The position numbers and the translations under genes were made by a program. A stretch of 44,852 bases of DNA from a phage, in sequence record PZ239914.1. The stretch is one strand, 5' to 3'. This document shows, one piece after another, positions 1 through 42,226 of this stretch (position 1 is the stretch's first letter; each line of letters begins with the position of its first letter). Below the pieces are notes generated by a model. That model made no database searches. It saw nothing but the letters and a program-made list of their open reading frames with translations, and had not been told where the DNA came from.

Positions 1-98
1 GTGTGCCGCCAGCGCACTCCAGGGCACTACGGCAACCGCATAAGCAACCTTTACCTGGTAGACGTTGCACGCGACCCGAACTTTTATGCGTAAATTGG

Positions 99-127
99 TT
101 GCATAATCATATTGGTTGCATTATATT
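99..127 (+). promoter_or_regulatory. candidate sigma70-type promoter (TTGCAT-17-TATATT) with two TTGGTTGCA motifs
   Basis: -35 TTGCAT at 99-104, 17-nt spacer, -10 TATATT at 122-127; ATTGGTTGCA copies at 94-103 and 111-120; precedes the ORF at 175. Confidence 0.45.
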
Positions 128-4900: not shown

Positions 4901-4921
4901 AGCTAAATCCTCATAAATTGG

Positions 4922-4950
4922 TTGCATTCTTGATCGAGCGGTGTAATACT
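4922..4950 (+). promoter_or_regulatory. candidate sigma70-type promoter (TTGCAT-17-extended -10 TGtAATACT) for the lipoprotein gene
   Basis: ATTGGTTGCA at 4917-4926 overlaps the -35; an 80-bp divergent region separates the tail fiber start (4900) from the lipoprotein start (4981). Confidence 0.4.
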
Positions 4951-5204: not shown

Positions 5205-6170
5205 ATGGGCGCTGGAGTACTTATCGACTACAACGACGGGCGACCGGTTATGGAGATAACCGCCGGGCTACGCGCGCCGTCATTCTGTACATCATTCTAT
5301 CAGCGCTGCCAGTCTGATAAGACGCTAACTATTAACACTCCGCTAACGCCGGGGTCGGATCTGGTCGTCGTGCTCACAAGTCCCGTTGAAGTGATGGAAG
5401 TCTTCGACCAGACACTGGTCTTGCCAGATCCGTTTTACATAACGTCAATACAGCGTAACGGGGATAGCGGAATAACCTTGCGCGGTGAGGACGCGTTTAA
5501 CGCATATAGCGGGCTTCCATCATGGGGCGGGGTGATTATGGAAGTGCTGCCGGTGGGGTCGCGCAATGCGGGCTTACTGGTGGCGAACTCGACTGACTTT
5601 ACCGCGATATCGAACGTATCCCGGCTTATGACCTGCCGATATGCGCAGCGCGTGTGGGTGAACGGAAGTATGCCATTACCGGTAAGCGGTGTCCCGTTCG
5701 CGCGCTGGGACGACGGAAACGTGTCTGTCGGCTTCGATGGCGGAAGTATTATCGTCCGTAATGCATCCTATGGCGGGATTGACGACGTAGGCGCGGCTGT
5801 TGAAATGGACTTGGTTATATTCAACAATACGCCGCCCACCCCTGGAAACGGCATCACCATGACAAACAACCAGGGGCAGGTCACGTTCTCTACCGTGAAT
5901 AAGCCGTTTGTTATCAATTCCGTTATTAATATCAGCACTGGTGGTAAGAATATCGGTAACAGCCTCGTACAGCTTTCATATACCGGCGCGCTTATTGAGA
6001 ACAACAGCGGATACAACCACGTGAGAATGAATGGGATACGCATGGCAGGCAACGTGGTTAGCGCGGCACGAAATCGCGTGATTGGTAACTACTCACGGCA
6101 GCAATTCCAGATGCCTAACCGCAACATAACCGTACCCACACCGTTACTCGTCATCCCTAACATGTATTAA
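5205..6170 (+). CDS. hypothetical protein (321 aa) co-transcribed with the lipoprotein
   Basis: ATG 3 nt after the lipoprotein stop; Gly/Asn/Thr-rich; no recognised motif. Confidence 0.5.
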   Translation: MGAGVLIDYNDGRPVMEITAGLRAPSFCTSFYQRCQSDKTLTINTPLTPGSDLVVVLTSPVEVMEVFDQTLVLPDPFYITSIQRNGDSGITLRGEDAFNAYSGLPSWGGVIMEVLPVGSRNAGLLVANSTDFTAISNVSRLMTCRYAQRVWVNGSMPLPVSGVPFARWDDGNVSVGFDGGSIIVRNASYGGIDDVGAAVEMDLVIFNNTPPTPGNGITMTNNQGQVTFSTVNKPFVINSVINISTGGKNIGNSLVQLSYTGALIENNSGYNHVRMNGIRMAGNVVSAARNRVIGNYSRQQFQMPNRNITVPTPLLVIPNMY

Positions 6171-6191
6171 AAAAGGGGCCATATGGCCCCT
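6168..6191 (-). terminator. intrinsic terminator after the J gene
   Basis: On the minus strand GGGGCC-atat-GGCCCC hairpin followed by U6. Confidence 0.6.
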
Positions 6192-6197
6192 TCGCAT

Positions 6198-15117: not shown

Positions 15118-15291
15118 TTATGCAGTCTCAGACGAGGGGGGCCGTTGACCCCCGTCTAGTCTGAAAGACTGGGCTTTGTCCCGCTTGTCCCGATCGGCTG
15201 AAAACCGCGGCAGCACTGGCGGGGACGTGGTGCTGTCCCGCTTTGTCCCGCTCCTTGTTTGTCCCGCTTTCTGTCCCGCTCAGTTTATGCA
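15118..15291. repeat. iteron-rich noncoding repeat element, copy A
   Basis: About 174 bp, roughly 85% identical to 32339-32512; starts TTATGCAGTCTCAGACGAGGGGGGCC with nested hairpins, then six direct TGTCCCGCT-type units, ends AGTTTATGCA. Confidence 0.8.
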
Positions 15292-20998: not shown

Positions 20999-21028
20999 TT
21001 GCATTGCGGATGTTGGTTGCAGTATATT
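20999..21028 (+). promoter_or_regulatory. candidate sigma70-type promoter (TTGCAT-18-TATATT) with two TTGGTTGCA motifs
   Basis: AT-rich upstream tract at 20961-20998; motifs at 21012-21020 and 21026-21034; drives the plus genes at 21064-22182. Confidence 0.45.
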
Positions 21029-21063
21029 GGTTGCACACCAACAGAGATATGAAGGAAAACAAA

Positions 21064-22638: not shown

Positions 22639-23734
22639 GCCATAGCCCCCTGTTTTTAAGCTGCGCAATAGTCATTAGTTCGCCCGTATCGGTGAACATC
22701 TTCGGCACTTTCACGCCTCGCATAATCTGGTCTGCGCGCTGCACCCCATATAATTCCTCCAGAATATGGCGCGGCTGGCGCTGCACCCAGGAGAAGAAAT
22801 CAGTCTGCGCGTCGACCTGCTCACTCAGCAATCGGCCCGCGTCAGCCTTCAGTGCCGGACGCTTACCACTGGGCCAATCTTCCATACCTTTGACTTTCCA
22901 CGTCTCCGTCGAACGGCAGCAATAATGCAGCTTGCCCGGACCAGCGCCATATTGTGACCCCGCCACCACTTTTCCGCCGCGCTTCCCTTTTGTATCGGGA
23001 GTAACATCAACCGGATAAAACAGGCGATCGCGTAGCTGGCACATGGGAGAAGTATGCGTGTCCAATGTAGCCAACCATTGGCGACCTTCGAGAATATCGT
23101 CATTAGCTTTTACCATTAATTCGCGGGCGGTTGCCGCATAGTGGTTGACCGCGGACTTAACAACGCTTGAGATTGCTTGCGCACTACGACCGCCTAGCGC
23201 GCGCCTCACGTCCGCAATAATTTCCATAGTCGGCTTGCCCTGAATGAATCCAGCGCGCACCTGATTCCCGATCTGCGTCCGGGTCCACTCCGAAAGTGAA
23301 TCGGGCCACTGCATCATGGTGTTACCCTGGAACGGGTTTTTCATTGCAGTCGCTGCAATCTGCGCGCCGGTCACAACGCCCACTACTTCGACCGCGGGCA
23401 CGGCGACCGCGGGCTGGATCGCCGCCGTTAATGTGTCGGCGAGATAATCAGCCTCGGTGTCGGCGAACTCCTGGAGGCTTTCAGCCAGCACCTTAAACTC
23501 GGTGCGCAGTTCCGTTTTGACGGTCTTGTCGAGTTGCGTTAAAAGTGTGGTAAGTGCCTTGTTGCTCATGGACTTTTTACCATCAAGTAACTCGGTCAAC
23601 TTACCCAGTAAAGCGGGCCGGAACTTCTCCCACATAGCCAGCACCATTCGCGCCTGGTCATTGCTCAGGCGCTGGGTGAAGATGTGACGGCGAATCATTC
23701 GATCCGCCAAATATTGATTAATTGTCTTCGCCAT
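22631..23734 (-). CDS. head morphogenesis / minor capsid protein (Mu F, SPP1 gp7-like position)
   Basis: 367 aa directly downstream of the portal gene. Confidence 0.6.
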   Translation of the reverse strand: MAKTINQYLADRMIRRHIFTQRLSNDQARMVLAMWEKFRPALLGKLTELLDGKKSMSNKALTTLLTQLDKTVKTELRTEFKVLAESLQEFADTEADYLADTLTAAIQPAVAVPAVEVVGVVTGAQIAATAMKNPFQGNTMMQWPDSLSEWTRTQIGNQVRAGFIQGKPTMEIIADVRRALGGRSAQAISSVVKSAVNHYAATARELMVKANDDILEGRQWLATLDTHTSPMCQLRDRLFYPVDVTPDTKGKRGGKVVAGSQYGAGPGKLHYCCRSTETWKVKGMEDWPSGKRPALKADAGRLLSEQVDAQTDFFSWVQRQPRHILEELYGVQRADQIMRGVKVPKMFTDTGELMTIAQLKNRGLWRD

Positions 23735-25238
23735 TGTCCGCTACCTTGTCCGGGTCTTCTTCGGTAGATTCTACCGCATCAGGGGACATTTGAGGCAATG
23801 GATTCTGATTTCGCAATTCGTCTTCCACCTGCTCGACGGTTTGCGAGTCGTCGATGACGCCCTGCGCCATCATCCACTTGATGAAGTCAGCCAGGCGGAC
23901 CGTGCCGGTCTGCACCCCCGACATCATCGCGGTCATAAGCTGCGCATCAACCGTGATTTCGGTGTAGAACTTGTTCAGCGTTACGCGCTGGTCGGCGGTG
24001 TCGCCCGTGAATAGCTGGACGATTTGCAGCGCACGGTTGAAAGCCTTCTCAACGTTACCGGCAATAAGCGACAGAATACTGTTATCAGTCTGCGCATCGT
24101 AGGCCGCCTCGGTTGCCGTCTTAGGTGCGGTCCCCTTCTCGACCAGGGCCGCGCCCAGTTTAGCCATTTGCAATTCGCGACGCTCACACAGTGCAACCGA
24201 CAAGTTGCGCTCCTCCGCCTGGATCAGTTTGGCGTCCATGTTCTGGCCCAGGATAACGCCCTTAGTCGCTCCGAGCGCGATGCCGCCTTTCAGGTTTTTG
24301 TCCGCCCATGATTGAGTCAAGCCAGTTGCCACCAGGGTAGGTTGGCCCACGATGTGCGCAATCTCGGCGACGTCCGCTTCGGCGTTGTAGTGCTTAATGT
24401 TGATGGATGCGATATCAGCCAGCGGGGCGGCGTCAGGCGTCGCGTTGTTATCCACCGCCCCACACCAGCAAAACGGAAGTTGAGTCAGTGCATTACCGGA
24501 GGCATCCACCAGCGGAACAAGGTCGGTGCGGGTGAATCCACGCGGCAAGTCCATTTGCACCTCGGACGTGTCGGCGTTGTAGTACCAGCGGCGGGCGTGT
24601 GCTGCACCGTTAATCATGCGAAGCTCGGTCCAGATTGTTACTTCGTGGTTTGCGAAGTCGTCCGGGTCTTCGGTGCTGATTTCATCCGTCTCCTTCAGCA
24701 CAATTAGCGTATCGACGCCGTGGGTCTGCCGCCAGTTGATGATCTGTTCTGCCGTATACAGGCGGATAAGCGGGCGGTGTGACGCCATCTCGGCGGCTGT
24801 CTGCGGAACTACGTTACCCAGTTCATCAAAATGCGCCTGGCGATCGTAGTCCACCATAAAGCCCGCACGGCCTGATTGCAGCACTTCCGACATAGCACCG
24901 CGAAGGAGTTGCGGCAGCGGCATGCCGCTGCCGTCTACGTCGTCAATCAGGTCAGCCATCGCCCCGGAAAGGTCAAGGCTTACCGGTTTAGCAAAGGCAA
25001 CGCCTAACAGTGCGTTAAGTGTGCGGGCGGTGGCGTTCAGGAATACAGCGCGTTGCTTGTACGCCTTATACCGCGCCCGTGCTTTCGGGTCAGTATTGTC
25101 GCCACTGGCAGGATGCGGCAGGTACAAGGGGCCGCACGCCTTAACGGCGCGCTCCCCTGCTACACAGTCACGGATCATTTTCCACTCTGGCGCGATTCGC
25201 GCATAGAGTGGGTGCTGGTTGTCAACGTTAACGGTCAT
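23718..25238 (-). CDS. portal protein
   Basis: 506 aa directly downstream of the large terminase; acidic C-terminus. Confidence 0.8.
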   Translation of the reverse strand: MTVNVDNQHPLYARIAPEWKMIRDCVAGERAVKACGPLYLPHPASGDNTDPKARARYKAYKQRAVFLNATARTLNALLGVAFAKPVSLDLSGAMADLIDDVDGSGMPLPQLLRGAMSEVLQSGRAGFMVDYDRQAHFDELGNVVPQTAAEMASHRPLIRLYTAEQIINWRQTHGVDTLIVLKETDEISTEDPDDFANHEVTIWTELRMINGAAHARRWYYNADTSEVQMDLPRGFTRTDLVPLVDASGNALTQLPFCWCGAVDNNATPDAAPLADIASINIKHYNAEADVAEIAHIVGQPTLVATGLTQSWADKNLKGGIALGATKGVILGQNMDAKLIQAEERNLSVALCERRELQMAKLGAALVEKGTAPKTATEAAYDAQTDNSILSLIAGNVEKAFNRALQIVQLFTGDTADQRVTLNKFYTEITVDAQLMTAMMSGVQTGTVRLADFIKWMMAQGVIDDSQTVEQVEDELRNQNPLPQMSPDAVESTEEDPDKVADNGEDN

Positions 25239-31799: not shown

Positions 31800-32126
31800 T
31801 TATTTCGCAAGCTGGGCGAATAGTTCGCGCTGGGCTTTAATCCGGGCGACGTTAGTCACTGCCGTCTCGCCGATCCCGAAGCGATACGCCAGGCGCTCAC
31901 GGGCAAATGCCAGCGCGTAGTCCTGGATAGCGTTCGCCAACGGCTGGATCTCTTCCATAGTGTCTAAGCGGTCCTCCAGCATACAGGCGATGGCCTGCTG
32001 CGTGACGCGAACAACGGACCACGCTGCCGATAGTCTTTCGATCGCTTCCGCTCCCTCACTGGCGAACTCCGCCGCTTCTTGCGCCGCCGCCATAGCCATT
32101 GCGTAATTCCAGATAATCGCTTTCAT
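31800..32126 (-). CDS. hypothetical protein (108 aa)
   Basis: GGAGG RBS; preceded by the candidate promoter at 32155-32183. Confidence 0.5.
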   Translation of the reverse strand: MKAIIWNYAMAMAAAQEAAEFASEGAEAIERLSAAWSVVRVTQQAIACMLEDRLDTMEEIQPLANAIQDYALAFARERLAYRFGIGETAVTNVARIKAQRELFAQLAK

Positions 32127-32154
32127 TGTTCAGTCCTCCGGTTGGTGTGCAACC

Positions 32155-32183
32155 AAAATATCAGGGTGCCAGGCTGAATGCAA
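32155..32183 (-). promoter_or_regulatory. candidate sigma70-type promoter (TTGCAT-17-TATTTT) with two TTGGTTGCA motifs
   Basis: Minus-strand motifs at 32148-32156 and 32179-32188. Confidence 0.4.
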
Positions 32184-32338
32184 CCAATATTAATCACGCG
32201 CATGAAAAAGTTGATCGCTATCTGCTGCAACTGCAAACTGCATTTTCTGCCCACCATTCAGCAACTCGCATTGGTTGCCTAGTTCATCCGCGACCGCACT
32301 TCGCATCATGCTGCCGTGTATTTTGCAATCCCCGGATT

Positions 32339-32512
32339 TTATGCAGTCTCAGACGAGGGGGGCCATTGACCCCCGTCTAGTCTGAAAGACTGGTAGTTGT
32401 CCCGCTTGTCCCGCTCCCCTCCAGGCCGCGTCCTCCGGGGCGGGACGGGGGTGCTGTCCCGTTTTGTCCCGCCTCTTGTTTGTCCCGCTTTTTGTCCCGC
32501 TTAGTTTATGCA
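32339..32512. repeat. iteron-rich noncoding repeat element, copy B
   Basis: Same 5' hairpin module and six TGTCCCGCT-type iterons as copy A, with a divergent central spacer; between the primase end and the 31800-32126 gene. Confidence 0.8.
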
Positions 32513-32586
32513 ATAAAACTGCATAACTATTCACTATATTCACACTACACGGCAACCAATACGACCAGATAAAAACACTCAAAATG

Positions 32587-32669
32587 GCAACCAATGCGCG
32601 CAAAATTTAATCTTTTAGCGATATGGGAATTCCCATATCGGCAACCAATACGCGCAAAATTTAATCTTT
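32587..32669. repeat. 30-bp direct repeats flanking a 20-bp perfect palindrome at the primase 3' end
   Basis: GGCAACCAAT(G/A)CGCGCAAAATTTAATCTTT at 32587-32616 and 32640-32669; palindrome GATATGGGAATTCCCATATC at 32620-32639; second repeat contains the primase stop codon. Confidence 0.7.
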
Positions 32670-34925
32670 CAGGTCGTCATCGGTCGCAGAAAGCGTGATG
32701 GGTATATTCGTTTTTATGACGATATTAGACGACCCATAGATGGCCCCGGTGTGCGGGTCTGTATAAAAACCTAACACTCCGCGCTCCACCATATCGTCAA
32801 TGGCCTTCGTCGATGTGCCACCTTTCGCTAGTCCAGCCTGGCGGACGATTGCCGATTTACTGAATCCGGTATGATCCGGGTTATCTTCCATCAGTTTTTC
32901 CAGTGCCGCATAAAGCACTTTCTCTTTTTCGTTGCGCGGGCCTGCGGCGTTCTCATCCTTAACTGCGGCTTTTCCAGCGGACTTCGCCTGCTCAATGGCG
33001 AACGGTGCCAGGGCGACCGGTACGAGGTAAAGAGTCTCGTCGCGTGGCGTGGATGCAATCGGCTTGACGTCCCAGCCGGCAACCACATCGCCGAAGTCCG
33101 GCCCGGTGCTGGTGGACTGGTGTGCCTCGAACGCTTCGGACTTGCGGAGATCCACCTTAACCTTGCACTTGAGTAGTACGAAGCCGCGCGGCGCTTGCTT
33201 GATGCCGTTACGCGCCTTTTCGTGATACAGGTTCAATTGGCCGGGCTGATTGTCGTCCGGTTGCTCCAGGAAGAACGCAGAATCAACAGCACCATGCAGC
33301 GCGCCGGACCCGCGGGGGGTTCTGCTGCCGTTTGCGCCCTTCGCCGGGTGATGGATGACGCCCGCGCTGCCGCCTGTATTTTCCGCAATGGCCTTCAGCG
33401 CTTTGACCACTTCGCCCATATCGCTGGCGTTGTTCTCGTCGAACGGTTTAGCATCGGCGGACCGCAACGCTACAGTCTGGTTGAGTGAGTCGAACGCCAC
33501 CAGGCCAACCGGTTCGCCGTTAGCGGTGCGGTTGATGAAGCTGATAACTTCACGCAATCCTGACTTGCTGGTGATATCCCAGCCGCGTGATTGCAGATCG
33601 ATAATGTGCAGCTTGTCCAGGTCGTGCTCGTATTTAATCTGCAATGCTTCCTTACGCTGGTTGGAGGCTTCGCCGCCTTCCGCGTCGAAATAGAAGTTAT
33701 GGCACTGGACGACCTTCGCACCGCCAAACGGGATACCGGCAGATACGGACGCCATCTGGCCCAGCACATAGAACGATTTACCGATGTTCGACTCACCGGC
33801 AAGATACCAGGTCGATTTGAAGTTGACCAGGCCTTCTATGATCGGGTCGTGCTTACTGAACAGTGCGACCGGTTCGTTGTCCAGGTCGGCATCGGTACAT
33901 ACGCCGTACTCGTCGCCATCTCCGACCGCATCGACGATATGCTCATAGCACGATTCCACCTCCTCGTCGTCCAGTCCAGGGAGGATGGCGGCGATTTGCT
34001 TACGTGACATGTTGTGCGGTTCGACGTTCAGGTGGTCCGGGATCCCTATAAGACGTAGCGCCAGGTGCTGGTGTCTGTTCAGTTCCGAGCAACACTCGTT
34101 GCCGGTGTGCATACACTTGAAACGGATCTCGCCATCCTTAACCATGATAGCCGTCGACCCTTCGCCGCTGTGCAGGTGTTCGTTAGGGCACGGCACTTCA
34201 TAGCCCCGACCGGACGACAGTGGCTCGAATCCTGCCTGGAAGCACCAATCCAGAATGCCGTCAGCCACACCATCATCGCCCTGGGTTAGTTCGCGGCGTA
34301 CTTCCTCTTTTTCCATTCCCAGCTTATCAGCCAGGCGAAGCAGACGACGGACACGGGCGCGCTTTCCGTAATGGCATTTAATAACAGACTGCTGGTGTGG
34401 CAGGTACATTAGGCGGTTAGTGTCTTTCGTGCAATCGTCGAAGTCCACATCTGACAGGCCCAGTTGGTGTAATAGTGCATACTGGACGCGGCCCAGGTCT
34501 TCAGCCGGTACAGGCTTGTCAGTGAGCACCAGGAAACGAGCGCAACGCGTGCCGCCTTTCAGCGGGTGGCGGTCGCCGGTAGTGGTGTGAAATACATGTT
34601 CCAGTCCCGCGTCGATGAAAGCCTTACGGCAGCGGCGCAGGGTGCGGGTGTCGGTGCGGTCAATATCGAAGAACAGGATCGAGCGGTCCACAGCACTGGT
34701 CTTGCGGCGTAAGCCGTCACTGGTATACGCCACGATGCCATCGGCCTTACGCTTGCGTCGCGCATACTCGGCTTTATCTTCCGTTTTGTTGATATGCACC
34801 GAGGAGATTTCTTTCGCATCATTGATAAATTCGAAAAACTCTTCGGTAGTCATCTGGAAGTTTTCCGCCCGGGCTTTTTCGCCTTTTTTAGCGGGTCGTG
34901 TTACAGCGAATTTAATTAAGCTCAT
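32661..34925 (-). CDS. DNA primase / P-loop helicase fusion protein
   Basis: 754 aa; Walker A GESNIGKS; Cys/His-rich zinc-binding-like segment CPNEHLHSGEGSTAIMVKDGEIRFKCMHTGNECC. Confidence 0.75.
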   Translation of the reverse strand: MSLIKFAVTRPAKKGEKARAENFQMTTEEFFEFINDAKEISSVHINKTEDKAEYARRKRKADGIVAYTSDGLRRKTSAVDRSILFFDIDRTDTRTLRRCRKAFIDAGLEHVFHTTTGDRHPLKGGTRCARFLVLTDKPVPAEDLGRVQYALLHQLGLSDVDFDDCTKDTNRLMYLPHQQSVIKCHYGKRARVRRLLRLADKLGMEKEEVRRELTQGDDGVADGILDWCFQAGFEPLSSGRGYEVPCPNEHLHSGEGSTAIMVKDGEIRFKCMHTGNECCSELNRHQHLALRLIGIPDHLNVEPHNMSRKQIAAILPGLDDEEVESCYEHIVDAVGDGDEYGVCTDADLDNEPVALFSKHDPIIEGLVNFKSTWYLAGESNIGKSFYVLGQMASVSAGIPFGGAKVVQCHNFYFDAEGGEASNQRKEALQIKYEHDLDKLHIIDLQSRGWDITSKSGLREVISFINRTANGEPVGLVAFDSLNQTVALRSADAKPFDENNASDMGEVVKALKAIAENTGGSAGVIHHPAKGANGSRTPRGSGALHGAVDSAFFLEQPDDNQPGQLNLYHEKARNGIKQAPRGFVLLKCKVKVDLRKSEAFEAHQSTSTGPDFGDVVAGWDVKPIASTPRDETLYLVPVALAPFAIEQAKSAGKAAVKDENAAGPRNEKEKVLYAALEKLMEDNPDHTGFSKSAIVRQAGLAKGGTSTKAIDDMVERGVLGFYTDPHTGAIYGSSNIVIKTNIPITLSATDDDLKD

Positions 34926-34935
34926 TGCCGTGGCC

Positions 34936-35265
34936 TTACTTAGAAGTTTTATTATTGCGTACCCAGGAGCGCACTGTGCTCTGATTAATTCCGGTCAACT
35001 CGGCGATCATTGCCCAGGACTTTCCCTCATTGCGCAAACGGATAACCTGCTTTTTGTATTCTTCCATTTCTTCATTGTGTTTTTGCAGCTTGCTCGCTGC
35101 CGTACCGTTGAGCAATTCCAGCCTGGCGCGTAATTCTTTTTCGGCACTGCGCAGACGTTCGATTTCAAATAACACCGCCCCCACGGCATCTGTATAAGCC
35201 CATGACCGGCTTGTCTCACTGCAAACAGTCTTCGTTAACATTTCGATTGCGTCGTTTACATTCAT
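34936..35265 (-). CDS. HTH DNA-binding protein (109 aa)
   Basis: C-terminal HTH-like KSWAMIAELTGINQSTVRSWV; coiled-coil N-terminus; GAGGG RBS; first gene of the leftward arm. Confidence 0.55.
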   Translation of the reverse strand: MNVNDAIEMLTKTVCSETSRSWAYTDAVGAVLFEIERLRSAEKELRARLELLNGTAASKLQKHNEEMEEYKKQVIRLRNEGKSWAMIAELTGINQSTVRSWVRNNKTSK

Positions 35266-35441: not shown

Positions 35442-35471
35442 TTGACACCCATCCTGCAACCAATCTATCAT
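35442..35471 (+). promoter_or_regulatory. candidate strong rightward promoter (TTGACA-18-TATCAT) with upstream T/A tract
   Basis: Perfect -35 TTGACA at 35442-35447, -10 TATCAT at 35466-35471, T9A4 tract at 35422-35434; TGCAACCAAT motif in the spacer. Confidence 0.5.
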
Positions 35472-42012: not shown

Positions 42013-42052
42013 CGGTATAGTGTGCAGGTTGGCACTATCGAGGATTTTAGAA

Positions 42053-42226
42053 ATGATTGAAGAAAAACGTTGTAGTAATTGCGGCTGCGTCAAGCCGCTG
42101 TCCCAGTTCCACAAATACACCGGTAAGACTGCGCGAAGTCCAGACGGTCATCGGGCCGAGTGCAAGTCGTGCCGCAATAAGAAAGAGCGCGAACGGCAGC
42201 GCCGCTATCGCGCAGAACAAGAATAA
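42053..42226 (+). CDS. zinc-ribbon protein (57 aa)
   Basis: CSNCGC...CKSC Cys pairs with a basic C-terminus; GAGGA RBS. Confidence 0.5.
   Translation: MIEEKRCSNCGCVKPLSQFHKYTGKTARSPDGHRAECKSCRNKKERERQRRYRAEQE

What the first reader, a model, noticed from the sequence alone, without database searches (positions are those of the whole stretch)
32587..32669. Duplicated primase 3' end flanking a perfect 20-bp palindrome containing GAATTC
A 30-bp sequence that includes the primase stop codon is repeated 53 bp downstream, with the perfect palindrome GATATGGGAATTCCCATATC between the copies. Both repeats carry the GGCAACCAAT variant of the over-represented 9-mer. It looks like an insertion footprint, a recombination site or a symmetric protein-binding site; on the minus strand the palindrome could also act as a terminator-like hairpin.
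Basis: seen in the sequence. Interest (0 to 1): 0.45.

Follow-up and report, generated by a model that had tools for sequence, protein, structure and literature searches.

The report
Variable repeat carrying a borrowed palindrome
Just after the helicase-primase gene of this E. coli phage lies a repeat whose copy number varies between related phages, and the 22-base palindrome inside it is the same element that sits inside KilA-N genes of prophages (some of them BstA-family anti-phage genes) across many bacterial phyla, so it may be a captured protein-binding or decoy site.

Summary
Two 33-bp copies (31/33 identical, 54 bp apart) flank a perfect 22-bp palindrome, CGATATGGGAATTCCCATATCG. The gene-proximal copy holds the last three codons and the stop of the helicase-primase gene.

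The window is a Dhillonvirus (HK578/SO-1-like coliphage). In relatives the same 54-bp unit (R + palindrome P) occurs 0 to 6 times. Alleles without P are scattered among alleles with it, and the R copies share derived changes within a genome. So this is a dispensable tandem repeat that changes by recombination or slippage between R copies. Each R carries a GGCAACCAAT box, a motif concentrated in intergenic DNA and overlapping two promoter-like sites.

P is not local sequence. The exact 22-mer occurs in 63 species-representative genomes from many phyla (about 0.03 expected). Most copies encode D-M-G-I-P-I-S inside KilA-N domain genes, and compensatory substitutions preserve the dyad there. The E. 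coli prophage versions belong to the BstA abortive-infection family, which is known to be neutralised by a short DNA element inside its own locus. Clean free-standing copies occur in unrelated phages.

Best reading (inferred, untested): P is a DNA site for KilA-N proteins, captured and amplified as a decoy. Rivals are an RNA 3' hairpin, a neutral relic, or an origin-associated hairpin. It is not a canonical terminator.

The parts
32586..32618 (+). R1, the distal copy of the 33-bp repeat (GGCAACCAATGCGCGCAAAATTTAATCTTTTAG). It starts with a GGCAACCAAT box.
   Evidence: family D4. In other Dhillonviruses R1 is 26-32/33 identical to R2 of the same genome.
32619..32640 (.). P, a perfect 22-bp palindrome CGATATGGGAATTCCCATATCG with an EcoRI site at its centre (32627-32632). 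It is a free-standing copy of the dyad element found inside KilA-N domain genes.
   Evidence: palindrome; none of 22 bp or more in 200 shuffles. (the same sequence in many unrelated contexts and phyla). (inside KilA-N genes it encodes DMGIPIS and is kept by compensatory changes). (hairpin -13.9 kcal/mol, no U tail).
32640..32672 (+). R2, the gene-proximal copy of the repeat (GGCAACCAATACGCGCAAAATTTAATCTTTCAG). On the minus strand it supplies the last three codons (L-K-D) and the TAA stop of the helicase-primase gene.
32551..32560 (+). Third GGCAACCAAT box, in the same orientation, 35 bp before R1. It is part of a weaker repeat at 32541-32563.
   Evidence: (family D2). It is conserved in every relative examined, including EP23, which lacks the R box.
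32661..34925 (-). Helicase-primase gene (754 aa).
   Evidence: ORF. (AAA_25 domain, residues 357-531). (phrog_3228, replicative helicase-primase, E = 0). Annotations of relatives.
32503..32550 (.). AT-rich spacer between the iteron cluster and the box/repeat array.
   Evidence: Read directly from the sequence.
32397..32500 (+). Cluster of TTGTCCCGC iterons (5 exact direct copies plus inverted partial copies). This is the core of non-coding 'region B'.
   Evidence: (families D1, D3). The SO-1 GenBank record annotates the homologous stretch as 'region B; direct, inverted and palindromic repeat sequences; sequence similarity with region A'.
15118..15291 (+). 'Region A', a paralogue of the iteron part of region B (window 32339-32512). 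It has no R or P units.
   Evidence: alignment; long identical runs over about 175 bp.
34936..35265 (-). 109-aa helix-turn-helix protein gene, the first gene of the leftward operon. It is a candidate binder of the GCAACCAAT boxes (inference only).
   Evidence: HTH_23, HTH_28 and Sigma70_r4_2 hits at residues 65-106. (phrog_9366). Relatives label it 'transposase' or 'resolvase'.

Best explanation
SHOWN.
- The feature is the two-unit allele of a 54-bp tandem repeat. It lies in the non-coding region directly 3' of the helicase-primase gene of a Dhillonvirus.
- A unit is R plus P. R is 33 bp and begins with one GGCAACCAAT box. P is a 21-22-bp perfect palindrome.
- The array gains and loses units by recombination or slippage between R copies. 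Relatives carry 0 to 6 R and 0 to 5 P. R copies are homogenised within a genome. The array is dispensable.
- The box is an operator-like motif. It is concentrated in intergenic DNA and overlaps two promoter-like sites.
- P is not derived from local sequence. It is a clean, free-standing copy of a dyad element that is normally embedded in the part of KilA-N domain genes that encodes D-M-G-I-P-I-S. There, compensatory substitutions and synonymous-codon choice keep it palindromic across bacterial phyla.
- The E. coli prophage carriers of P are BstA-family abortive-infection proteins.

INFERRED.
- P acts as DNA: a two-fold symmetric or cruciform-forming site bound by KilA-N domain proteins.
- In this virulent phage it would serve as a decoy or immunity site against prophage KilA-N/BstA-type proteins, by analogy with the 'aba' DNA element that neutralises BstA.
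- Tandem amplification would raise its dosage.
- I put the anatomy and evolutionary history at 0.9 or higher, and the decoy function at about 0.3-0.4.
For: Identity of the phage: 158-159 Dhillonvirus records match at 88-95% identity.

Copy-number series:
- EP23: no R box.
- HK578 and SO-1: R only.
- Window, CS16, Gluttony, B2: R-P-R.
- PNS1: R-P-R-P-R.
- Teewinot: 6 R and 5 P.
- In an evenly spaced sample of 60 records, about 31 have two copies and about 25 have one.

Evolution of the array:
- R-only alleles are interspersed with R-P-R alleles when sequences are clustered on the adjacent primase 3' end.
- R1 and R2 share derived substitutions within a genome, for example L162 and L159.

The box:
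- 17 hits against 3.6 expected in the window.
- In Ioannina 15 of 20 hits fall in the 7% of the genome that is intergenic.
- It overlaps promoter-like sites at 35442-35471 and 2008-2037.

P elsewhere:
- More than 120 IMG/VR contigs, in at least 29 unrelated flanking contexts.
- 63 species-representative genomes from Cyanobacteria, Bacteroidota, Bacillota, Chloroflexi, Spirochaetes and Proteobacteria, against about 0.03 expected. 41 of the 63 lie in KilA-N-like coding sequence.
- 969 of 5426 complete E. coli genomes carry it.

Selection on the dyad inside KilA-N genes:
- Homologues fetched independently of P keep the dyad through compensated variants: GATGCG..CGCATC, GATACC..GGTATC, GATGTC..GACATC, GAAACG..CGTTTC and a GATATC centre.
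- Observed complementarity is 10.7 of 12 pairs, against 7.9 of 12 under synonymous-codon resampling.
- 7 of 10 pairs show changes on both sides, and 0 of 500 shuffles reach the observed values.

Link to defence:
- The P-bearing E. coli protein matches phrog_6287 'BstA abortive infection system' (E = 2.7e-89), the PADLOC BstA model (E = 3e-21) and BTP1 st313-td.
- BstA is neutralised by a short cognate DNA element inside its own locus, which works as DNA and needs multiple copies when supplied in trans (PMC8585504).

Clean capture:
- The window shares 24-25 identical bases with the prophage gene, but the flanks are unrelated.
- The window encodes no KilA-N protein.
Against: - Nothing here or in the literature shows that a KilA-N protein binds P.
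- The only mapped aba element (BTP1) is unrelated in sequence and position. The BTP1 bstA gene has no P.
- aba-BTP1 itself is found only in bstA-carrying phages, so capture of such an element by another phage has no precedent.
- Within Dhillonviruses P is not more conserved than its flanks: 0.05 against 0.07 differences per site.
- Asymmetric variants and half-palindromes are viable (Teewinot, L135, L149, slur05).
- About 40% of relatives do without P.
- P goes with the KilA-N domain whatever the C-terminal domain is (ANT, T5orf172, BstA-C), so the link to BstA defence specifically is partial.
- Covariation of the arms would equally fit a nucleic-acid hairpin.
Confidence: 0.4

Rival explanations
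1. RNA hairpin at the end of the helicase-primase message. P, transcribed from the minus strand 21 nt after the stop codon, would fold into a stable stem-loop. That stem-loop would block 3' exonucleases or act as a processing or weak termination site. The R duplication would be a by-product.
For: The hairpin is -13.9 kcal/mol with z = -3.8. Free-standing P copies in other phages often lie within about 0-20 nt of a stop codon. One follows a major capsid gene, where it is extended to a 30-bp palindrome. The arms covary, as expected for a stem.
Against: No U tract follows the hairpin on either strand, and no terminator call falls at P. No Rfam family matches. A generic stabiliser hairpin would not need the same 22 bases in unrelated phages and phyla. 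In KilA-N genes the element sits in mid-coding sequence. Compensated changes are almost all Watson-Crick doubles, with only one G-U intermediate. One variant also keeps the centre self-complementary (GATATC), which a loop does not require. P is absent from about 40% of relatives.
Confidence: 0.2
2. Neutral relic. P was picked up once by illegitimate recombination and has no function in this phage. A palindrome flanked by direct repeats is an unstable structure that expands and collapses by slipped mispairing.
For: The array is dispensable, and losses and expansions recur. P evolves at about the same rate as its flanks, and degenerate copies are tolerated. That palindromes between direct repeats are classic deletion hot spots is established knowledge, not tested here.
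Against: P is still a perfect palindrome in most P-bearing Dhillonviruses: 52 records match the 32-nt probe at 99% or more. A possible remnant in the most divergent members (AACCATATT at the R-R junction of LM40P1 and Ioannina) suggests it is old. Clean P-only copies recur in many unrelated phages and genomes. That is hard to explain without either selection on P or a mechanism that moves P.
Confidence: 0.25
3. Origin-associated hairpin. Region B would be a replication origin (iterons, an AT-rich stretch, then the repeat array next to the helicase-primase gene). P, which gives the same hairpin on both strands once unwound, would be a priming or loading signal, like the ssiA/ssiB hairpins of IncQ oriV.
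For: The layout is iterons at 32397-32500, an AT-rich stretch at 32503-32550, boxes and P, then the helicase-primase gene. Region B has a paralogue, region A. That recalls two-site origins such as P4 ori/crr, which I cite from memory.
Against: P is absent from about 40% of viable relatives, and EP23 also lacks the adjacent box. Region A has no P. P occurs in many contexts unrelated to replication, including inside KilA-N genes. No origin has been mapped in this genus. GC skew only follows transcription direction.
Confidence: 0.1
4. Miniature mobile element. P would insert at gene boundaries and duplicate its target, with R1 and R2 as a 33-bp target-site duplication.
For: There is presence/absence polymorphism with a duplicated flank. 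A few other free-standing copies also have flanking direct repeats: 14 bp in L208 and L194, 9-11 bp in L036 and L037.
Against: Flanking repeats are absent from most copies, and where present their length varies from 9 to 33 bp. No transposase is associated. The element has no interior. Multi-unit arrays (PNS1, Teewinot) are tandem amplification, not repeated insertion. The single-R allele is explained more simply by deletion between R copies.
Confidence: 0.05

Closest known systems
aba (anti-BstA) self-immunity DNA element of prophage BTP1 (Owen et al. 2021, PMC8585504)
   Same: It is a short DNA element physically inside the locus of a KilA-N(-like) BstA abortive-infection gene. It acts as DNA and is cognate to its protein. 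It protects a phage that carries it and needs many copies to work in trans. P likewise lies inside BstA-family and KilA-N genes. P is under nucleotide-level selection and is amplified in some phages.
   Different: aba-BTP1 is a 63-bp non-palindromic sequence with terminal CCCGCC direct repeats that overlaps the gene start. P is a 22-bp palindrome about 170 nt into the gene. The two share no sequence, and BTP1 bstA lacks P. No function has been tested for P. aba-BTP1 has not been found outside bstA phages.
Baculovirus homologous regions (hr); recalled from memory, not tested
   Same: Tandem arrays, variable in copy number, of units that each hold a roughly 30-bp palindrome centred on an EcoRI site and flanked by direct repeats. 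A viral dimeric DNA-binding protein (IE-1) binds them. Baculovirus genomes also carry the related Bro-N/KilA-N-type 'bro' genes.
   Different: Eukaryotic virus. The palindromes are imperfect. Their roles are as enhancers and origins. There is no sequence relationship. This is an analogy only.
REP/BIME extragenic palindromes of enterobacteria
   Same: Short palindromes placed just after stop codons. They vary in copy number between strains and can stabilise upstream mRNA.
   Different: REPs are imperfect, occur hundreds of times per genome and are mobilised by RAYT transposases. P occurs at a single locus in this genome. Its home is a coding sequence.
Iteron origins with single-strand initiation hairpins (IncQ oriV) and two-site phage origins (P4 ori/crr); recalled from memory
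   Same: Iterons, an AT-rich stretch and a palindrome next to a primase/helicase gene, with a second iteron region elsewhere in the genome.
   Different: The palindrome here is dispensable. No origin has been mapped in this genus.
Region A / region B repeat regions annotated in Sodalis phage SO-1 (GQ502199.1)
   Same: This is the homologous non-coding region. The depositors already flagged it as made of direct, inverted and palindromic repeats.
   Different: SO-1 has the single-R allele without P. The annotation does not cover the 54-bp unit, its variability or the link to KilA-N genes.

Membership tests
Variable-number tandem repeat (slippage or unequal-recombination array) | Head-to-tail repetition of one unit, in register | tested here: met
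   The period is 54 bp. The window holds R-P-R, PNS1 holds R-P-R-P-R and Teewinot holds 6 R and 5 P with 53-54-bp units.
Variable-number tandem repeat (slippage or unequal-recombination array) | Copy number differs among close relatives, with repeated independent changes | tested here: met
   Relatives carry 0, 1, 2, 3 or 6 R copies. R-only alleles are scattered among R-P-R alleles when clustered on the adjacent gene (UPGMA on 850 nt, so approximate).
Variable-number tandem repeat (slippage or unequal-recombination array) | Concerted evolution of copies within a genome | tested here: met
   Both copies share derived changes in L162 (TAGTC) and L159 (GGCGACC, AAATTTT). R1 and R2 are 26-32/33 identical within genomes.
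Intrinsic (Rho-independent) terminator | Stable hairpin | tested here: met
   9-bp stem with a 4-nt loop, -13.9 kcal/mol.
Intrinsic (Rho-independent) terminator | U/T tract immediately 3' of the hairpin | tested here: not met
   On the minus strand the hairpin is followed by GCTAAAAG, on the plus strand by GGCAACCA. The scan reports no terminator at P.
aba-type anti-BstA DNA element | Located within the locus of a BstA-family gene | tested here: inconclusive
   This holds for P in E. coli prophage genes. The window's copy is free-standing in a phage without any KilA-N or BstA gene.
aba-type anti-BstA DNA element | Sequence or architecture like the mapped aba (63 bp, terminal CCCGCC direct repeats, overlapping the gene start) | tested here: not met
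   P is unrelated in sequence and position, and BTP1 bstA contains no P-like dyad.
aba-type anti-BstA DNA element | Neutralises its cognate BstA protein when present as DNA on the phage or on a multicopy replicon | not testable with these tools
   This needs plaque and transformation assays of the kind in PMC8585504.
KilA-N-gene dyad element (defined here) | Sequence GAT-NNN-GGAATTCC-NNN-ATC with complementary arms, identical or near-identical to the KilA-N coding element | tested here: met
   The window shares 24 of 24 bases (GCGATATGGGAATTCCCATATCGG) with the E. coli prophage allele. The B2 and Hafnia phage variants (GGGGATCCCC, CATAAC) also exist among gene alleles.
Transposable element with target-site duplication (MITE-like) | Fixed-length target duplication and an associated transposase | tested here: not met
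   Flanking repeats are absent from most copies, and where present they range from 9 to 33 bp. No transposase domain lies nearby; the 'transposase' label on the 109-aa protein reflects only an HTH.
Essential component of a replication origin | Conserved in all replicating relatives | tested here: not met
   P is absent from about 40% of Dhillonvirus records, and the adjacent R box is deleted in EP23.
Sigma-70 promoter | -35 and -10 hexamers with 16-18 bp spacing inside the repeat | tested here: not met
   No promoter-like site is found in 32000-32900 on either strand.

The most novel reading that the evidence does not exclude
KilA-N domain genes carry their own cognate DNA site inside the coding sequence of the DNA-binding domain, so the protein and its site cannot be separated by recombination. 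This would generalise the BstA/aba self-immunity principle across bacterial phyla. Other phages, including this virulent coliphage, would have captured clean copies of that site. They would amplify them in tandem next to their replication genes as DNA decoys that blunt prophage-encoded KilA-N/BstA-type abortive infection. Arrays of different GGAATTCC-core dyads, such as the one in an Alcaligenaceae genome, would be multi-specificity decoys.
Probability: 0.25. Interest if true: 0.85.

Novelty: new variant of a known kind. Interest (0 to 1): 0.62.

Why it matters
If the palindrome is the binding or immunity site of KilA-N/BstA-type proteins, three things follow.
1. This locus would be the first case of a virulent phage capturing a DNA-level anti-defence element from prophages. 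Known anti-defence factors are mostly proteins.
2. It would give a testable handle on what KilA-N domains recognise, which is poorly known for this widespread domain. It would also help with how BstA-like systems tell self from non-self.
3. It would explain a sequence of 20-24 bases conserved from cyanobacteria to enterobacteria.

There is a practical side. Dhillonviruses are used in phage-therapy and biocontrol collections, and copy number at this locus could affect how well they plate on lysogens.

Even if the function is null, the locus is a clean natural example of a hairpin-plus-direct-repeat minisatellite in a phage. It could serve as a typing marker within the genus.

Tried and rejected
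- **Canonical terminator or promoter at R-P-R:** none found.
- **Known RNA family:** no Rfam match at E up to 1 in 31900-32900.
- **Small ORF across R-P-R** (34 aa, 32594..32698 on the plus strand): rejected. Teewinot's 53-bp units break the frame, and relatives delete the region.
- **Resident KilA-N gene as the source of P:** none in the window. The 'putative kilA anti-repressor' of Ioannina is a 57-aa Cys-rich protein, not KilA-N. Its homologue in the window lies at about 42050-42226.
- **A larger captured gene fragment:** the R flanks show no significant similarity to the flanks of P in KilA-N genes.
- **HK022 Roi** (from memory, a phage protein that binds inside its own gene): the paper is not held. 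The Roi ORF did not match the KilA-N profile, and HK022 has no P. This remains an analogy only.
- **aba-BTP1:** different sequence, and found only in bstA phages.
- **Host chromosomal regulatory site:** P is in only 969 of 5426 E. coli genomes, and the contexts examined are prophage regions.
- **Target-site duplication:** flanking repeats are inconsistent.
- **GC skew as an origin marker:** it only mirrors transcription direction.
- **Neighbours of free-standing copies:** no common gene. They include a capsid gene, ORF6N genes, a C5 methylase and unknowns.
- **Literature:** nothing on Dhillonvirus regions A and B, on this palindrome or on a KilA-N palindrome.
- **Error to ignore:** the L133 row is an artefact of my script, because the search returned -1. 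One search gives the correct single site.
Full report
**1. What is there**

The sequence and the repeat finder show the following.
- Two 33-bp direct repeats: R1 at 32586-32618 and R2 at 32640-32672. They are 31/33 identical and 54 bp apart start to start.
- Between them lies a perfect 22-bp palindrome, CGATATGGGAATTCCCATATCG (32619-32640). I call it P.
- The 754-aa ORF at 32661..34925 on the minus strand is a helicase-primase. It has an AAA_25 domain and matches phrog_3228 with E = 0.
- The gene's TAA stop and last three codons lie inside R2. The other 21 bp of the repeat are non-coding.
- No palindrome of 22 bp or more arose in 200 shuffles of the window.
- Each R starts with GGCAACCAAT. A third copy of that box sits at 32551.

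**2. Surroundings**

The window is a Dhillonvirus, an HK578/SO-1-like siphovirus of E. coli. 158-159 GenBank phage records match at 88-95% identity.

Reading the plus strand upward towards the stop of the helicase-primase gene, the non-coding stretch contains:
- a conserved GC-rich hairpin segment (about 32339-32390);
- five TTGTCCCGC iterons (32397-32500);
- an AT-rich stretch (32503-32550);
- the box at 32551, then R1-P-R2.

About 175 bp of this stretch, including the iterons, is duplicated at 15118-15291. The SO-1 GenBank record annotates the two places as repeat 'region A' and 'region B'. I found no paper that analyses them.

**3. The repeat is a length polymorphism**

Homologous regions from relatives give a series:

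| Phage(s) | Arrangement |
|---|---|
| EP23 | R box deleted |
| HK578, SO-1 and others | one R, no P |
| Window, CS16, Gluttony, slur05, B2 | R-P-R |
| PNS1 | R-P-R-P-R |
| Teewinot | six R and five P-like units (53-54 bp) |

- In an evenly spaced sample of 60 of the 159 records, about 31 have the two-copy length and about 25 the one-copy length.
- 75 records hold P with its flanks.
- When sequences are clustered on the adjacent 850 nt of the primase gene, R-only alleles are scattered among R-P-R alleles in at least three places. This is a rough UPGMA, and phage mosaicism is a caveat.
- Within genomes, R1 and R2 share derived substitutions. Examples are L162 and L159. In the window they are nearly identical (31/33), but in CS16 only 26/33.
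- The most divergent members (LM40P1, Ioannina) have R-R with a 32-bp period. Their junction reads AACCATATT, which looks like the right arm of P left behind by a 22-bp deletion. Only five bases support this, so it is suggestive at best.

Together this is a tandem array that expands, collapses and is homogenised by recombination or slippage between R copies. It is dispensable for a viable phage.

**4. The box**

- GCAACCAAT-type sites are over-represented in the window: 17 against 3.6 expected.
- In the divergent phage Ioannina, 15 of 20 sites fall in the 7% of the genome that is intergenic. Their genomic contexts look equivalent to those in the window.
- In the window a box lies in the spacer of a near-consensus promoter-like site (TTGACA-18-TATCAT, 35442-35471). 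Another overlaps the -35 hexamer of a second promoter-like site (2008-2037).
- Elsewhere the box directly follows TATAAT or TATAGT hexamers, or occurs as direct or inverted pairs.

It behaves like an operator for a phage DNA-binding protein. The 109-aa helix-turn-helix protein encoded just upstream of the helicase-primase gene is a candidate. That assignment is inference. Each added repeat unit adds one box.

**5. The palindrome is not local sequence**

- The 20-mer occurs in more than 120 IMG/VR contigs, in at least 29 unrelated flanking contexts.
- It also occurs in non-Dhillonvirus phages and in 969 of 5426 complete E. coli genomes. The E. coli contexts I examined are prophage regions.
- The exact 22-mer occurs in 63 species-representative genomes. 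These span Cyanobacteria, Bacteroidota, Bacillota, Chloroflexi, Spirochaetes and Alpha-, Beta- and Gammaproteobacteria, with flanking GC content of 0.29-0.72. My estimate of the chance expectation in 596 Gb is about 0.03.
- In 41 of those 63 genomes, and in about a quarter of the viral contigs, it lies inside a KilA-N domain gene (PF04383). There it encodes D-M-G-I-P-I-S about 58 codons into the domain.

**6. The dyad is selected at the nucleotide level in those genes**

- I fetched KilA-N homologues by peptide patterns (DMGIPIS and QGTWVHP-type); the second of these does not depend on P.
- These homologues keep the symmetry through compensated variants that change the encoded residues and the synonymous third base of the Pro codon together. 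The variants are GATGCG-GGAATTCC-CGCATC, GATACC-..-GGTATC, GATGTC-..-GACATC and GAAACG-..-CGTTTC. One has a GATATC centre.
- Resampling synonymous codons gives 7.9 of 12 complementary pairs on average, against 10.7 observed.
- On 22 distinct sequences, 7 of 10 pairs show changes on both sides (16 cells). 0 of 500 shuffles reach the observed covariation, and slid controls drop to 32-49% paired.
- Only one G-U-type intermediate is seen, and one variant keeps a self-complementary centre. This leans, weakly, towards DNA symmetry rather than an RNA stem.

**7. Free-standing copies**

- Many copies lie outside any detectable KilA-N gene.
- In lambdoid prophages P sits beside the hok/gef promoter. 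No more than about 30 nt of decayed KilA-N sequence remains on one side, and an unrelated module lies on the other. P itself stays perfect.
- In other phages the copy is clean, with no KilA-N similarity on either side, as in the window. These copies often lie within about 0-20 nt of a stop codon.
- Some loci hold several different GGAATTCC-core dyads side by side (L183, L219, L074, L012).
- The window shares 24-25 identical bases with the E. coli prophage allele and with an unrelated viral contig. It encodes no KilA-N protein.

**8. Link to a known defence system**

- The P-bearing protein of about 250 aa in E. coli prophages is a BstA-family protein. It matches phrog_6287 'BstA abortive infection system, replication inhibitor' (E = 2.7e-89, full length). 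It matches the PADLOC BstA model over its C-terminal domain (E = 3e-21). It also matches BTP1 st313-td by tblastn.
- Owen et al. 2021 (PMC8585504) showed the following for BstA:
  - it has a KilA-N-like N-terminal domain and blocks phage DNA replication;
  - it is neutralised by aba, a short DNA element inside its own locus;
  - aba acts as DNA, is specific to its cognate protein, protects any phage or phagemid that carries it, and needs many copies in trans.
- The mapped aba of BTP1 is a different sequence, located at the gene start. BTP1 bstA has no P.
- aba-BTP1 is not found outside bstA phages.
- P also occurs in KilA-N genes with other C-terminal domains, namely ANT and T5orf172.

P is therefore not a member of the mapped aba family. 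It could work like one.

**9. How it most likely works**

Shown:
- a dispensable 54-bp tandem repeat of variable copy number;
- an operator-like box in each unit;
- a palindrome that belongs to the KilA-N-gene dyad family.

Inferred:
- P is a DNA site, two-fold symmetric or cruciform-forming, for KilA-N domain proteins.
- Carried free-standing and amplified by a virulent coliphage, it would titrate or neutralise prophage KilA-N/BstA-type proteins.

This one idea accounts for several observations: why the element is embedded in the gene for a DNA-binding domain, why it covaries, why clean copies recur in unrelated phages, why it is patchy and variable in copy number here, and why arrays of different variants exist.

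Against it:
- no binding data exist;
- there is no precedent for capture of an aba element;
- P shows no extra conservation within the genus;
- degenerate copies are tolerated.

I rate the function at about 0.3-0.4 and the anatomy and history at 0.9 or higher.

**10. Rivals**

- **RNA 3' hairpin for the primase message.** The stem is stable and many copies follow stop codons. But there is no U tract and no reason for sequence identity across phyla, and in its home genes the element is intragenic.
- **Neutral relic made unstable by its own structure.** This fits the dispensability. It does not fit the recurrence of clean copies elsewhere.
- **Origin-associated priming hairpin.** The layout resembles IncQ oriV, but P is absent from about 40% of relatives and from region A.
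- **Miniature mobile element.** Flanking duplications are inconsistent and no enzyme is associated.

**11. Novelty and verdict**

The repeat region was flagged in a GenBank note for SO-1, which has the allele without P. I found nothing in the searchable literature on three points:
- the 54-bp unit and its variability;
- the identity of its palindrome with an element inside KilA-N/BstA-family genes;
- the nucleotide-level selection on that element across phyla.

I class the feature as a new variant of known kinds (tandem repeat arrays; DNA-level immunity or decoy sites). The function is open and directly testable.

Noticed in passing
window 15118-15291 versus 32339-32512: About 175 bp of non-coding DNA is duplicated within the genome ('region A' and 'region B' in the SO-1 record). 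Both copies hold a conserved GC-rich hairpin segment (CAGACGAGGGGGGCC.TTGACCCCCGTCTAG) and clusters of TTGTCCCGC iterons, in direct and inverted orientation. Region A lies after the tape-measure gene. This could be a two-site origin or another protein-binding array.
   Followed up: partly
window 94-120, 2010-2031, 4917-4925, 21026-21050, 32147-32188, 32270-32278, 35456-35464; L313 (Ioannina) genome-wide: The GCAACCAAT motif is an intergenic, operator-like site conserved across the genus. In Ioannina 15 of 20 hits lie in the 7% of the genome that is intergenic. It often directly follows TATAAT or TATAGT, sits inside a TTGACA-18-TATCAT promoter-like site, or forms direct (15-17 bp) or inverted pairs (TGCAACCAATAGGTTGGTTGCA at 2009-2030).
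   Followed up: partly
L233-L312 and L170-L232 (KilA-N genes in viral contigs and in genomes of many phyla): KilA-N domain genes carry a 20-24-bp dyad in the codons for D-x-G-I-P-x-S. Compensatory substitutions keep it palindromic and change the two x residues together. The exact 22-mer recurs from cyanobacteria to enterobacteria. I found no description of this in the literature.
   Followed up: yes
L183 2520-2710 (Alcaligenaceae MAG); also L219 4456-4503, L074 13857-13920, L012 5709-5734 and 6046-6067: These are arrays or pairs of different perfect or near-perfect palindromes that share a GGAATTCC core. Examples are CGTTGTGGGAATTCTCACAACG, GTGAAACGGGAATTCCCGTTTCAC, P, and CGTTGCAGGAATTCCCGCAACG, about 35-40 bp apart in non-coding DNA. 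Some match arm variants seen inside KilA-N genes.
   Followed up: partly
L131 3001-3023 (PPompW prophage), L013, L014, L015, L054, L026, L118: In lambdoid prophages of E. coli, a perfect P sits about 15 nt upstream of the hok/gef-family promoter. No more than about 30 nt of decayed KilA-N sequence remains on its other side. So P marks a module junction and outlives the gene it came from.
   Followed up: partly
window 24912-24933 and 6173-6192: There are two other long perfect palindromes. CGGCAGCGGCATGCCGCTGCCG (22 bp) lies in the 23718..25238 minus-strand ORF, the portal homologue by gene order with Ioannina. AAGGGGCCATATGGCCCCTT (20 bp) lies exactly between the convergent ORFs that end at 6170 and 6198, and looks like a bidirectional terminator stem.
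   Followed up: no
window 34936-35265 (minus strand): The 109-aa protein labelled 'transposase' or 'putative resolvase' in many Dhillonvirus records has only a C-terminal helix-turn-helix (HTH_23, HTH_28, sigma-70 region 4-like). It has no catalytic domain, so the labels look like over-annotation.
   Followed up: partly
window about 42050-42226 (plus strand); L313 30755-30928: A 57-aa Cys-rich (CxxC...CxxC) basic protein is annotated in Ioannina as 'putative kilA anti-repressor protein'. It is conserved in the window but is not a KilA-N protein.
   Followed up: partly
hit tables: There are oddities among the related records. P-GXEC-L2P5 is 88,607 bp, about twice the genome length, with 5-6 matching places, so it may be a concatemer assembly. 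Near-identical Dhillonvirus genomes are deposited as Acinetobacter phage NJ01, and others under Campylobacter and Salmonella names, so the host labels may be unreliable.
   Followed up: no
L004 (Teewinot) 1764-2054: In the six-unit array, most palindromes are hybrids (CGATATGGGAATTCCCAAAAT) in which the right arm is replaced by the sequence that normally precedes R1. The last unit joins P directly to the middle of the box (GGGAATTCCCAATGCGCGC). Both are signatures of unequal recombination at short homologies.
   Followed up: partly
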